A DNA stretch of 64,000 bases. Origin: Chrysomallon squamiferum. Its lineage: Eukaryota; Animalia; Mollusca. This document shows, piece by piece, positions 313 through 20,181 of the stretch. The position numbers and the translations under genes were made by a program. The notes under the pieces are model-generated. The model saw only the letters and a program-made list of their open reading frames with translations. It had not been told where the DNA came from and did not search any database. The stretch lies in the NCBI GenBank assembly GCA_012295275.1, contig CM022675.1, positions 8,308,001-8,372,000 of the forward strand, read 5' to 3'. Every line of letters begins with the position of its first letter. Position 1 is the stretch's first letter.

Positions 313-1048
313 ATGAAATACTTTCTTTTGTGTCTCCTCCTTTTGAAACAACGATCTACAGGTAATGTCGTAATATTATTTTTGAATTTACTCTTCAAAA
401 TATTAGAGATCTCTATCTCTGTATCTCACTACGTCCGTGTGTACCCCCTGGGCTAAATTTGTATAGTTATTCATGTAGTCTCCCATGTTTTCCTCTGTCA
501 TCAACGCCTTTTATTCGAGATATCTGGAGGGAACCATTATACTACAGGTTCCAGTGAATACAGAACACTCATTGCTTTCTGAATATCCTGACAATATAGA
601 GTTTTGTTAACATCTTCCTGAACTATTATCTTAGAGTCGCTGGAAAACGTGTTCTATTTCTAGAATGTTCCAAGCACATTGTGTTTGTGTCTGTACCTAT
701 ATAATAAACTGTACATCGATGAAAAGTGCTAGGTGGGAACACTTGTAGGATCAATTCTGTTGCAACATTTCCCGTTTATTTACCATAGTTTGAAGGTGTC
801 CAGAAAAGACAGATTAATAAGAAAGGCGTTTTATACACTGTAACAATTTGTTCAACCTTCGTTTAATCTCTGTTTTAGTTTATTTTTCTGTCTCTTTCAT
901 CTTCCTCTAATTTTTTGTTTTCGTAGATTTTCAGTACCTTGTATGTTTTTCTTCTATCTGTGCCCACCAACCCCCGGCTCTGACTCCTCTCCTCTCTCTC
1001 TCTCTCTCTCTCCTCCTCTCTCTGTCGCATCTCTGTATCTTCTGCTAC

Positions 1049-1105
<57 letters not shown>

Positions 1106-3333
1106 ACTTAATTCCTCCCTCCCATCTTTTTGTCTTTTGCTATGTTTTCCCCTTCTACTTCTTTTGTCTGGAAATACTTCGATGTCCTTCTGTCTACTTC
1201 TGTCTCTAGCCCTTAACATTCCTCCTGCTATCAAACATGTTTCACTGAAAAAAAAAAAATATATATATATATATATTTTTGCTATTTTAGTAGATGCAGC
1301 TGTTTGTTCCTGCCCTTTCACTTTCAAAGACGGTGTCACCTATGTAATGACAAATACTGACTGCCCTTATCGGATCTGTTTAGATAGAGCTGGTCCGGGC
1401 AAAAATTGCTGTGGTTCCTGTTTCCATGGTGACAGTCTTGTTGAACTCGAAAACGGCTCGGTAATAAAAATGAAACATCTGACTGTAGGTCAAAAGGTTC
1501 TCACAGGTAAATTATTATAATTATTAATTTTGTGATTAACTATTAAAGTTAACTGTAAAGTCGCTGTGTAACCCTTGATTAAGTAACAAACACTGTTATA
1601 TTTTTCACGTATATTTTTCATACTGTTTCTCTGAATAATGTCCCTGCGTTTGCGAATTTCTATCCATTAATTTAGTTTTCACTAAACCTATGCCCGTATC
1701 ATTATCCTGCTGTGCTCCGTGTTGTTTCCATTGTGACAGTAATCCTATTCTCGACGAAGGTTCAGAAGTAAAAATGAAACATCTAACTGTGGGTCAGAAG
1801 GTTCTCACAGGTTAGTTATTGCTGCTATTATTATTTTTGATGTATAGTCACTGAAGTTAATGCTAACGTCATGACACAGCTATCAAATAAGAACCACACT
1901 ACGAGTATTAGTCAGATTATATGCTAAACTCAAGAAAGGAAAGTAGCGACACATTGGTACAATATACACATGTGGTAAAACAAACTAAATTACTCTTGTC
2001 GAGATAGGCCGGTAATAAAACTTCACATTCTGCATCTGTTTGATCGACAGCAAGTTGAACACGATATCACAGAAGAAGTTCATTAAAAAAAACTAATTTT
2101 TAAACCTTACCTGAGAAAACAACAGGCATTATTTTATTTTTGTTTTTGCAACAGACGTTGAGTCATTCCGAATAATGAAGTTAATGTGGTTTCCACAACA
2201 ATATCTGATGTCCACTTATGAAACAGATTTTGTTTACATGCTACAAATTCTGAGTATGTTTCAGAAACTATCTTCTTTGAATTTCGAAATAAGTATAGAT
2301 ACTGCTCTCTTGTTGGCTGATAGGCTCTACGTACTGGTGTTTTTAAAACTTAACAATTCCTAACCCGTTCATCATTTAGTGAATATTTCGCTTTAGATTT
2401 CACGAGAAATCATTTGGCCACTTTAATTATTTCGCGACTCTTTCCATTTTCTACTCTATGCTGACGGTACAATACTGTTAGCAGAATCACCGGATGATTT
2501 ACAACATAATATTAATATCTTTCTCAATTACTGCTCACTAAAGTCAATAGAAATAAAACTAAAGTAATGATTTTCAGTAAAGGACGAAAACGTTGTCACT
2601 ATATATTTAAAATTGTTGGAGAGATTATTAATGTAGTAATCTGTGATAATGTTAAATGGTTACGTGAAACGGTGTGCAAAATACTACATGTTCAGTGTCT
2701 ACAAATATGGAAAAAATAAAATGGAAACTTTTCCAAAAGGCTCGTAATTATGAAGTTCTAAAGCATTAATTGAAATTAGAAAATTATTTAAGTGTGCTGT
2801 CTCAACAGAATTCTAATATCTTATGTAAATTTAGAACCTCCAATATTACATTTCCTATCGAAAATGGACAATGGTTTAATAGACTGACAGAAAATAGAAA
2901 ATGTCATATTTGTAAACATGACAAAATGTATATTATTATGTATCTGAATGCAATGATCCTATGTTACTAAATGCGAAAAAATGTAGACCAGACAAATACA
3001 AGAGACATCCAAATATATTTTGATATAATGAATTGTTTAGTAGGAAAAATACGTTTATATTAAAAAAGTTATATTTATTAACAAGAACTATATGTGAGAG
3101 AATCTGTCCTCCACGTTAAACTCCTACGAATTAATTTTTATTTTGTTATTATTTATCTTTAATACATTCTTATCTGTACTGTCATCCTACGGTTTATGAG
3201 AATAAAGTCACTGTCATTGTCCATCAACATTTTATGGTCACCATGATATATCCAGGTTTCTGATTCTTTACAAAGCGTTTAGTTTACATTACTGAAGTTA
3301 CTGTTCCTAATCTAGTTGTCGCCATCATAATCA

Positions 3334-3425
<92 letters not shown>

Positions 3426-4454
3426 TTGTTCCTAAATGTGTTCTTGTTTAAATCACTGATATTCTTTCAGTGGAAAATGGAAAACGGACATTTACTGAAG
3501 TAAAAACTTTCTTGAAACGAATACCCCTGACCAATGTCACCCATCAAATATTTACGACAGAAAAGGGAAATGATTTTTCTGTTACAGAGGACCATCTGAT
3601 ATTTATGTCCAACAACAACAAAACTGCTGACATGAGAGCTGAGTGAGTATTTTGTTTTCCTAGCCTGTGTGGTTCAACAAATAAACTTACTGTTTTGTCT
3701 CTTCACTTTCATTTGATCACATTTTTCCAAAACTCCAGATAAACCAACATATATAACTAATACCTCCTAGTCTCATATACCAACCCAGATATATATATAT
3801 ATATATACGATAATACCGATAAAATGAAGTTAACTGATACATATTTTTTCAAACTAAGGTATGCGATGTTTGTAAAACGAGGTGATTATATTTTCTCCAC
3901 ACTGTCGTGTCCAAGTGGTCTTTGTGCAGAGCGAGTTGTTGATATTTCCTTTTCTGAAAAACCAGGTAATAATATTAATTATATATATATAATAATAATG
4001 ACAATAATAATAATGCTTGTAGTACTAGTAGTAGTAGTAGTAGCACTACTAGTAATAGTAGTTGAAGTAACAGCAGCAATGATAATAATAATAGAAATAT
4101 TAATAGTAATAACAAAAATAGAATTAAGAACATTATTGACAATAATAGTAACACAAGTGGAAATAATCATTAATTCCAGTGAGTTTTATATGGTAAAATA
4201 AAATATTTAACGTTTTTGTTTCAGGTTTGTACGCACCACTGACTGATACAGGAACTCTTGTTGTGGATGGAGTCTTAGCTTCCAATTACGTTTACTTCGA
4301 TCACGAATTGGCACATTACTCTATGATTCTGTTCCGGTGGTTTCCTTGGTTACTGAGACCGTGGGAACAAGACGGATGGAGTCCCATTTTCAGATTCATG
4401 ATCTCCATCTCTGAAACGGTATTACCTTTCAGTGTGTTCCCAGAACGTATCTAA
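313..4454 (+). CDS. Hog/Hint-domain secreted precursor, copy A (signal peptide + 6-Cys peptide + Hint + SRR-like tail), ~257 aa, 5 exons
   Basis: Exons 313-361, 1291-1506 (tandem TAGTAG acceptor; 1294 also in phase), 3471-3642, 3859-3965, 4225-4454. All junctions are GT-AG and join in frame (774 nt). Protein: MKYFLLCLLLLKQRSTVDA-AVCSC...KNCCGS|CFHGDS...[10 protein letters not shown]...VTEDHLIF...[23 protein letters not shown]...HELAHY. CFxxxS, TxxH and G(L/V)[15 protein letters not shown] are Hedgehog-type Hint motifs. Confidence 0.88.
1676..1810 (+). pseudogene. Second, degenerate or alternative copy of Hog exon 2 inside intron 2 of copy A
   Basis: Reads ...[35 protein letters not shown] with donor GTTAGT at 1811. 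An upstream in-frame relic CPCVC at 1639-1653 is preceded by TAA. A phase-compatible acceptor TTTAG ends at 1675. Confidence 0.7.
2390..3222 (+). mobile_element. Degenerate non-LTR retrotransposon (LINE) fragment in intron 2 of copy A
   Basis: RT-motif relic LLYADGTILLAESPDDLQ near 2450-2505. C-terminal LCKFRTSN...PIENGQW...ENRKCHIC segment (ORF 2770-2970) is typical of LINE ORF2 ends. 3' end is AATAAA followed by a GTCACT/GTCATT short-repeat tail at ~3200-3221. Confidence 0.7.
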
Positions 4455-18809: not shown

Positions 18810-18899
<90 letters not shown>

Positions 18900-18909
18900 A
18901 ACCAATAGT

Positions 18910-19111
18910 CTGCCAGTTGTGTTATTGGACATAAATATTAGATGGTCCTCTGTGACGAAAAACTCATTTCCCTTTTCTGTCGTAAATGTTCGATGGGTGA
19001 CATTGGTCAGGGGTATTCGTTTGATGAACATTTTTACTTCAGTAAATATCCGTTTTCCATTTTCCACTGAAAGAATGTCAGTGATTTTAACAACAACAAA
19101 ATCAGCAACAA

Positions 19112-19155
<44 letters not shown>

Positions 19156-20181
19156 TGATGATGATGATGATGATTTTGATGATGATAATGATGGCGACAA
19201 CTAGATTAGCAACATTAACTTCAGTAATGTAGATTATCAGAATCCAGGATGTTTGATGGTGACCATAACATTTTGATGGACAATGACAGTGACTTTATTC
19301 TCATAAACCGTAGGATTACAGTACAGCCAAGAATATGCCTCAGATATATAATAATACAGATATAAATAAAAAAAAAAAAAAATAAATGAAGTATCTTCTA
19401 CTTTAGTTTGTTTTACATGTACGTATTCTACCACTGTCTCGCTTCTTTCCTTTCTAGTGTTTAGTTCATGGAGTCATTAGTGATCAGTGTTTTTGTTTAT
19501 TCTTGAGCTTTATGATGATCTTTAACTTCAGTAAAATTAATAGTTGTCTTAATAATTTACCTGTGAGAATATTCTGACCTGCAGTTAGATATTTCATTTT
19601 CACCAGTGAACCGTCTTCGAGTACAAGCTTACTCTCACCATGAGAAAAAAACATGGTAAACAGCAATCCTCATCGGTGTACAAAACACAATTACAATAAC
19701 AGCTTTAGGAAGTCATCATAGTCCACTCCTTGCTTGTAATATTTTTTTTTTTTCTCTTGCAAATACATTTATGAATATATCCTGGAGTAAAAGCGTTTTC
19801 GTCAGTAGGAGAAAGAAAGACAGGACTTGAGAGAGGAAAAGGCACCAAAACAAAATGAGATGGCGAAAGATTTAAAGGTAAGTTAAAAGAAAGGCTGATG
19901 GAATTAGACAGGAATAGTAAAGCTAACAGACAGAGTGAAATACTGTGAGGTGGAGAGATGAAAGCAAAGACAGGAAGTAATGGAGGCGGAGGAAGAGGAG
20001 TAATAATAAGGAAAGGGAGGAAAAAGAAAAGAGAAGAAGAAAGAAGAAACGGAAATAAAGTGACAGAAACCAAACAGACGTGAAATGTGGTAACGGGATT
20101 AATATAAATTCGAAAACGATACGAAATACCTCTTACAGGCTGTGGCAGCAAAAGCAGGATTAGCAAAGCAGAATACTTCAT
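18910..20181 (-). pseudogene. Hog/Hint copy D, pseudogene
   Basis: Exon 1 20181-20130 (MKYSALLILLLLPQPVR). Exon 2 19781-19561 (GYIHKCICK...TS*SCYCNCVLYTDEDCCLPC-FF) has an in-frame TAA at 19707-19705, catalytic Cys1 lost and a frameshift at the cleavage site. Exon 3 from 19065 is truncated near 18913 next to a (CA)n tract. No adjacent exons 4-5. Confidence 0.85.

What the first reader, a model, noticed from the sequence alone, without database searches (positions are those of the whole stretch)
313..20181. Expanded cluster of self-cleaving precursors: signal peptide + hypervariable Cys-rich peptide + Hint domain
Seen: four paralogues share one 5-exon plan. The signal exon and the Hint/SRR exons are nearly identical between A, B and C. 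The predicted ~40-aa mature peptides are barely alignable apart from Cys ([151 protein letters not shown]). Known: Hint domains cleave before Cys1 via a thioester; hedgehog-related genes without Hedge exist in nematodes (warthog/groundhog) and lophotrochozoans (Lophohog); a conserved signal plus a hypervariable Cys-framework peptide is the hallmark of conotoxin and defensin families. Inference: this is a rapidly diversifying family of secreted disulfide-rich effectors (defence, toxin or recognition peptides) released, and possibly C-terminally modified or tethered, by their own Hint domain. I do not recognise this peptide framework as a named family.
Basis: partly seen in the sequence, partly recalled or inferred. 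Interest (0 to 1): 0.92.

Follow-up and report, generated by a model that had tools for sequence, protein, structure and literature searches.

The report
Cassette-swapping Lophohog peptide precursor family
Three intact genes and one broken copy, likely from a snail, each join a signal-like leader and a short, highly variable cysteine-rich peptide to a Hedgehog-type self-cleavage domain; they belong to the obscure Lophohog lineage, likely vary their peptides by swapping one exon, and have lost two catalytic residues, so the predicted release of the peptide needs a bench test.

Summary
The anatomy is real, but D is a pseudogene. A, B and C are open five-exon genes: leader, 42-44-residue Cys-rich peptide, Hint plus SRR. 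The Hog domain nests among Gigantopelta aegis paralogues inside the gastropod Lophohog clade. The peptide framework is not new: B and C carry the Lophohog core C-x-C-x-C…CC-x-C plus an extra C-x-C, as does one G. aegis protein.

New here: (1) Exon 2 is far older than the rest of each gene (synonymous distance 0.68-0.86 in its Hint half, 0.05-0.18 in exons 3-5), and A's intron 2 holds a relic of a B-type exon 2. This points to exon-cassette exchange. (2) DNA runs show at least 7-10 further exon-2 types each. (3) Hint keeps Cys1 and TxxH but has Lys at D46 (Lophohog-wide) and Asn at C143 (all 16 aligned relatives have Cys). Hedgehog needs both, so cholesterol transfer is unlikely and self-cleavage uncertain.

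Peptide dN/dS among near copies is 0.8-1.9, not significantly above 1. Expression is untested. A defence or toxin role is unsupported. The scan's earlier notes show no such family. Verdict: new variant of a known kind.

The parts
313..4454 (+). Gene A, intact, 257 aa. Exons 313-361, 1291-1506 (alternative in-frame acceptor at 1294), 3471-3642, 3859-3965, 4225-4454. Peptide framework C-x-C-x16-C-x4-C-x9-CC; junction Ser|Cys1
1708..1810 (+). Relic 3' end of a B-type exon 2 inside intron 2 of A; the similarity to B runs on to 2138
   Evidence: 80/87 nt to B, 69/87 to A's own exon 2. Contigs of runs X1 and X4 span 1566-1788 and one of X7 spans 1228-1690
5976..6204 (-). Orphan exon-5 copy (motif J reads S-S-Y); 3' end approximate
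6893..10372 (-). Gene B, intact by exon lengths and phases, 258 aa. Exons 10372-10324, 9526-9308, 7935-7764, 7512-7406, 7122-6893. Framework C-x-C-x15-C-x-C-x2-C-x10-CC-x2-C|Cys1. Exon-2 donor is a weaker GTTATT; other in-frame acceptors exist
10818..10967 (+). Orphan 3' part of exon 5
12854..13030 (-). Orphan exon-5 copy with early stop
14153..17951 (+). Gene C, intact, 256 aa. Exons 14153-14201, 15071-15283, 16986-17157, 17423-17529, 17722-17951. Framework C-x3-C-x-C-x15-C-x-C-x-C-x9-CC-x2-C|Cys1
18920..20181 (-). Pseudogene D: exon 1 at 20181-20130; exon 2 at 19781-19561 with an in-frame stop and a frameshift; exon 3 cut by a CA repeat; no exons 4-5

Best explanation
These are three intact genes and one pseudogene of an expanded Lophohog-derived family, likely in a gastropod, whose predicted secreted precursors would release a roughly 4.5-kDa disulfide-bonded peptide without cholesterol by an N-to-S shift at Hint Cys1 followed by hydrolysis, and whose peptide variety likely comes largely from exchange of the exon-2 cassette between otherwise near-identical copies. 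Shown: gene anatomy, Hog domain, placement in the Lophohog clade, cysteine framework, discordant age of exon 2, the relic exon, many further exon-2 types in DNA runs, retention of Cys1/Thr68/His71, and Asn at position 143. Inferred: secretion, splicing, the equivalence of Lys45 to Hedgehog D46, cleavage, disulfide pairing (4th with 8th Cys, since A lacks both), and a role as a variable extracellular ligand. Odds by step: Lophohog descent 0.9; cassette exchange 0.75; cleavage at Cys1 0.6; no cholesterol 0.85; receptor or microbe-binding ligand rather than structural part 0.5.
For: The top hits for exon 5 among 1.84 billion representatives include G. aegis, Haliotis, Patella and Capitella Hog proteins. 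The P0004 search also found the chiton 'Lophotrochozoan hedgehog-related' protein. Exon-5 tree: window rows lie in a clade with 10 G. aegis proteins (100/99), inside a Lottia+Patella+Haliotis+Gigantopelta clade (97/87). The exon-3 tree agrees weakly (80/85). The six-Cys core pattern is in B, C and 10 of 183 stored proteins, all mollusc or Capitella; the eight-Cys pattern is in B, C and 1 of 183 (P0140). Synonymous differences in the exon-2 Hint half against exons 3-5: 9/20 vs 6/117 (A-B), 10.5/21 vs 16/117 (A-C), 10/20 vs 19/118 (B-C); Fisher p 1e-5 to 2e-3. A and B align at 83%, 85% and 89% on both sides of a non-matching block, A 838-1707, that carries A's exon 2. Hint codons are under purifying selection (p 1e-4 to 0.01; not computed for A-B exons 3-5). 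The model of relative P0004 superposes on Hedgehog Hint 1AT0 at 1.7 A. D303 (D46) mutations make thiol cleavage of Hedgehog more efficient (PMC9163320 passage).
Against: Hedgehog C143 is required for processing and for DTT-type N-terminal cleavage (PMC12054796, part 1 and passages). Here that position is Asn in A, B and C. D46A Hedgehog precursors stay uncleaved in cells (PMC9772569 passages). The residue before Cys1 is Cys or Ser, not Gly. Conotoxin mature-peptide exons also show raised synonymous distance (PMC3862624 Table 5 passage), so locally faster mutation could mimic an older exon 2. The trees rest on 56-76 columns, contain no named Hedgehog, and leave the chiton Lophohog and the Capitella protein outside the supported gastropod clade. 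The leader is short (16 codons in exon 1, with a 7-8 residue hydrophobic stretch) and no signal-peptide predictor was run.
Confidence: 0.5

Rival explanations
1. The Hog domain is catalytically dead in this branch. The variable peptide stays attached and is displayed on a secreted Hint scaffold held to membrane or extracellular matrix by the SRR helices.
For: Both D46 and C143 equivalents are replaced, and Hedgehog needs each. The exon-5 branch to the window genes is long (1.04). One near copy in run X7 has Trp at Cys1 (one contig). C. elegans Hedgehog-related proteins are matrix components (PMC10793445, abstract start in listing).
Against: Cys1, Thr68 and His71 are kept in A, B and C and the Hint codons are under purifying selection. 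Motif J is naturally Asn, Ser or Thr in 15 of the 85 stored Hog proteins that the pattern could read (61 of 146 not read), and Burglin reports Ser, Thr and Asp there. Many Hog domains therefore persist without that Cys.
Confidence: 0.3
2. The peptides diversify by conotoxin-like point mutation under positive selection as defence or toxin effectors; cassette exchange is incidental.
For: Near copies of A's peptide differ at 13-15 listed sites in each of 4 of 4 runs, mostly changing residues, some by 2-3 bases in a codon, and none removes a Cys. dN/dS is 0.9-1.9, against 0.3-0.4 in exons 3-5.
Against: No comparison rejects neutrality (binomial p 0.30-0.77; Fisher against Hint p 0.10-0.69). B-C peptide distances are saturated and give dN below dS. 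No toxin or defensin match in Pfam, PDB sequences or folds.
Confidence: 0.25
3. The cluster is a decaying duplication array with little function; variable peptides reflect relaxed constraint.
For: One pseudogene, three orphan exon-5 copies and one relic exon in 20 kb. Peptide dN/dS is near 1.
Against: Three open reading frames with intact junctions, conserved Cys and significant purifying selection on Hint. A parallel multi-gene family exists in G. aegis.
Confidence: 0.1

Closest known systems
Lophohog (lophotrochozoan hedgehog-related; Acanthochitona crinita A0A1J0M5N9 = P0146; similar proteins in Lottia P0164, Capitella P0012, Patella P0013, Haliotis P0007)
   Same: Signal-like leader, C-x-C-x-C-x(9-10)-CC-x-C motif before the Hog domain, no Hedge domain, Lys at the D46 column in the molluscs, similar SRR.
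   Different: Extra N-terminal C-x-C; no pro-region and no 6-residue linker before Cys1; Asn instead of Cys in motif J; no C-terminal xxEL/xxDL tail; many copies with very different peptides, where Lophohogs were described as a five-sequence clade (PMC5103448 passages).
Gigantopelta aegis 'hedgehog-like' RefSeq models (P0140, P0004, P0133; astacin-Hog fusions P0141, P0163, P0006, P0009)
   Same: Nearest relatives (54% identity for exon 5 to P0004); multi-gene expansion with varied short Cys-rich N-termini; P0140 has the same eight-Cys framework.
   Different: They keep Cys in motif J, and P0140 has a 12-residue linker after the last Cys. They are automatic annotations; my searches found no paper describing them as a family.
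Hedgehog precursors (SHH, Drosophila Hh; PDB 1AT0, 7E2I, 6TD6)
   Same: Hint fold, Cys1, TxxH, SRR.
   Different: No Hedge domain, no Gly before Cys1, D46 and C143 equivalents replaced; cholesterol transfer not expected.
Short-N-terminus Hog proteins of nematodes, cnidarians and protists (Ts Xhog1-3, XC Shog1/2; Burglin 2008, PMC2362128)
   Same: Secreted 15-34-residue or six-Cys N-termini on a better conserved Hog domain (abstract, passages, section 5 and section 13 part 1).
   Different: Other lineages and motifs. That paper favours gradual divergence of N-termini; here there is evidence of exon exchange.
Conotoxin gene superfamilies
   Same: Conserved signal exon and variable Cys-framework exon with raised Dn and Ds (PMC3862624 passages).
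   Different: No sequence or fold match; no propeptide; proposed release by Hint; no venom evidence.

Membership tests
Lophohog | Hog domain (Hint + SRR) without Hedge domain | tested here: met
   Pfam Hint on exons 2, 3, 5 of A; no other family; SRR aligns with SHH
Lophohog | Hog domain groups with Lophohog sequences | tested here: met
   Supported clade with Lottia, Patella, Haliotis, Gigantopelta (97/87). The link to the chiton Lophohog is not resolved in 56-76-column trees but rests on profile score and shared motifs
Lophohog | Characteristic Cys motif upstream of Hog | tested here: met
   Pattern read from P0146 and relatives matches B and C, not A, which lacks two Cys. The original definition (Burglin's Genome Biology review) could not be read
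Lophohog | Cleaved signal peptide and secretion | tested here: inconclusive
   Hydrophobic 8-mer means 3.1-3.6, like relatives at 2.5-4.1; no predictor run
Hedgehog | N-terminal Hedge domain and G|CF junction | tested here: not met
   42-44-residue peptide; junction C|CF or S|CF
Cholesterol-transferring Hog domain | Cys1 and TxxH | tested here: met
   Present in A, B, C
Cholesterol-transferring Hog domain | General base D46 | tested here: not met
   Lys at Hint position 45, the column where six other Hog rows have Asp. Equivalence to D46 is by numbering and column; no Hedgehog sequence was aligned there
Cholesterol-transferring Hog domain | C143 in motif J | tested here: not met
   Asn at Hint position 143 aligns with the Cys of SHH and Drosophila Hh
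Self-cleaving Hint protein | Cleavage at Cys1 | not testable with these tools
   Needs expression
Conotoxin or defensin type effector | dN/dS above 1 in the mature peptide | tested here: inconclusive
   0.8-1.9, not significant
Conotoxin or defensin type effector | Homology to a known toxin or defensin scaffold | tested here: not met
   No Pfam hit on the peptides, no PDB sequence hit for B exon 2, no fold hit at E<=0.001 for a weak model of C exon 2
Conotoxin or defensin type effector | Gland or immune expression and bioactivity | not testable with these tools
   No data obtained

The most novel reading that the evidence does not exclude
A vent-snail lineage has turned Lophohog into a combinatorial library of tens of protease-independent, self-releasing disulfide peptides. 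Exon-2 cassette swapping renews the library, a new Hint chemistry needing neither D46 nor C143 releases the peptides (for example an intein-like Asn143 step, or capture of the thioester by Lys45), and they serve microbe or symbiont recognition.
Probability: 0.15. Interest if true: 0.85.

Novelty: new variant of a known kind. Interest (0 to 1): 0.55.

Why it matters
In the library searched, Lophohog genes appear in only two papers, neither passage set giving a function. This cluster shows one branch that has multiplied and varies only its small N-terminal peptide, with visible traces of how the peptide exon is replaced. That gives a concrete case of how Hog proteins acquire new N-termini, which Burglin 2008 left between divergence and acquisition. 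It is also a natural test of the recent claim that C143 is an obligatory intermediate in Hint processing: a family under purifying selection carries Asn there. If the precursors cleave, they define a sterol-free, C143-free release module; if not, they are display scaffolds. One expression experiment decides.

Tried and rejected
No whole genome is held, so copy number and genome-wide trees could not be done. No RNA holder was listed, and the contigs laid showed no GT-AG exon joints among the rows shown; neither bears on expression. Summed contig depth is 10-20 times higher on the Hint half of exon 2 than on A's peptide, but the tool says depth is no copy number, so only contig counts were used. 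Run X1 shows no cover on A's peptide; not used.

The word-indexed search with exon 5 against longer proteins found nothing among 65 candidates. The Atlas does not hold B exon 2 and gave no usable hit for the P0140 peptide. The AlphaFold model of P0004 left the peptide unresolved (pLDDT below 50). The model of C exon 2 was weak (pLDDT 67, pTM 0.40, beta-hairpin) and matched nothing at E<=0.001; the wide structural search was not obtained. Pfam was run on single exons, not on a whole precursor of the window.

Paper searches for this family listed no description of it. Most subscription papers, Burglin's Genome Biology review and the supplements of PMC5103448 could not be seen and may hold Lophohog alignments. 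Earlier scan notes: none by sequence, none in this genome for the words Hint and hedgehog, three bacterial Hint notes by words, unrelated and not used.

Rejected: four intact paralogues; a wholly new framework; Hedgehog membership; an assembly artefact behind the relic (bridged in contigs of three studies).
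Full report
Observation. The window is AT-rich eukaryotic DNA. Between 313 and 20181 lie four copies of one gene in alternating orientation. A, B and C have five exons with GT-AG junctions and identical phases; A and C read through open, and B has open exons of matching lengths. 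D has a stop and a frameshift in exon 2, a truncated exon 3 and no later exons. Three orphan exon-5 copies and one relic exon-2 end lie between the genes. Pfam Hint matches exons 2, 3 and 5 of A in order. The predicted peptides, 42-44 residues after exon 1, are 23-28% identical. Splicing and secretion are inferred, not shown.

What family. A full scan with exon 5 returned 132 proteins at E<=0.001. Of the ten I looked up, nine were named, from Gigantopelta aegis, Haliotis, Patella and Capitella. Searches from the G. aegis protein P0004 and from a 16-row profile added a Lottia protein and the chiton protein named 'Lophotrochozoan hedgehog-related'; two papers describe Lophohog as a Hog domain with a unique N-terminus in Lottia, Acanthochitona and Capitella (passages). 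In a 41-row exon-5 tree the window genes sit among ten G. aegis paralogues (100/99), inside a gastropod clade with Lottia, Patella and Haliotis (97/87); no row was dropped. A 34-row exon-3 tree agrees with weak support. These trees are short and hold no named Hedgehog. The source is therefore probably a gastropod near Gigantopelta (inference).

The peptide. Lophohogs carry C-x-C-x-C-x(9-10)-CC-x-C shortly before Hint Cys1. B and C carry the same core plus an upstream C-x-C; the core pattern hits 10 of 183 stored proteins and the eight-Cys pattern 1 of 183, G. aegis P0140. A lacks the 4th and 8th Cys together, which suggests that they pair (inference). The framework has no Pfam model and no PDB match. 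In four DNA runs, the listed loose ends show 8, 7, 7 and 10 contigs that match the Hint start and then continue upstream with other sequence; in several rows their consensus ends in CC-x-x-C (27 rows not shown). The family is thus larger than this window shows.

How the variety arises. Synonymous distance between paralogues is 0.05-0.18 in exons 3-5 but 0.68-0.86 in the last 30 codons of exon 2, which code almost wholly for Hint and are under purifying selection. Exon 2 as a whole is thus older, or mutates faster, than its neighbours. Conotoxin mature exons show a similar rise in Ds, so this alone does not decide. The relic favours exchange: A aligns with B at 83% up to 837 and at 85% from 1708, starting inside a B-type exon-2 end (80/87 nt to B), while A's working exon 2 sits in the unmatched block between and is only 70/87 to B. 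Contigs from three studies bridge this arrangement. A is best read as a B-like gene that received another paralogue's exon 2. Positive selection is open. Five near copies of A's peptide give dN/dS 0.81-1.94 with p>=0.30 against neutrality, and none loses a peptide Cys.

Does it cleave. Hedgehog's active site is C1, D46, T69, H72 and C143 (PMC12054796). A, B and C keep Cys1, Thr68 and His71. Position 45 is Lys, as in 17 of 18 mollusc relatives. Position 143 is Asn and aligns with Hedgehog's Cys; all 16 relatives in alignment A1 keep Cys, though 8 of 85 readable stored Hog proteins also have Asn. In Hedgehog, D46A forms the thioester but cannot use cholesterol, D46 changes speed thiol cleavage, and C143 changes block processing and N-terminal cleavage. 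Cholesterol transfer is therefore unlikely. Release by hydrolysis of the Cys1 thioester is plausible, because inteins cleave N-terminally without a downstream nucleophile (recalled, not from a call), but is only about 60% likely. Burglin equates motif J with intein motif G, whose last residue is Asn (recalled), so a second, C-terminal cut is conceivable; PMC12054796 instead equates C143 with the +1 residue.

Comparison and verdict. Secreted short or Cys-rich N-termini on Hog domains are known in nematodes, cnidarians and protists, and similar unnamed proteins appear among my hits. The architecture is known and the descent from Lophohog well supported. Not found in eight paper searches: a multi-copy Lophohog branch with exchanged peptide exons and loss of C143. 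It works like a signal-plus-variable-peptide family, but it is not shown to be a toxin or defence family. New variant of a known kind; interest 0.55.

Noticed in passing
P0007, P0009, P0013, P0020, P0139, P0144, P0145, P0146 (alignment A1): 8 of 16 Lophohog-type proteins end in xxEL or xxDL, like an ER-retrieval signal (recalled motif). It would keep the Hog part in the ER after cleavage. The window genes and most G. aegis paralogues lack it.
   Followed up: no
P0141, P0163, P0006, P0009: G. aegis has astacin protease-Hog fusions nested in the same clade. In P0009 the Cys-rich stretch after the protease resembles the Lophohog motif.
   Followed up: partly
window 1335-1337 and 1421: A near copy of A in 4 of 4 runs gains a seventh peptide Cys; one contig in run X7 has Trp in place of Hint Cys1.
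   Followed up: partly
P0044, P0126, P0045, P0165, P0020: Unnamed eukaryotic proteins with a short Cys-rich peptide before a Hog domain, two with Asn in motif J: the same design in other lineages.
   Followed up: no
window 26683-28047 (-): Large exon of a FAST kinase-like gene (PF06743, E 8e-15).
   Followed up: no
window about 30200-42700 (-): Multi-exon multicopper oxidase gene, ceruloplasmin or hephaestin-like by eye (PF07732 on one exon).
   Followed up: no
window 48940-49407 (+): C-type lectin exon (PF00059, E 5e-9).
   Followed up: no
window about 51800-56240 (-): Exons with EGF-like and cuticlin-N (ZP-like) matches and a probable transmembrane exon.
   Followed up: no
window about 52560-52940: Tandem repeat of about 57 nt that reads as an open frame on both strands.
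   Followed up: no
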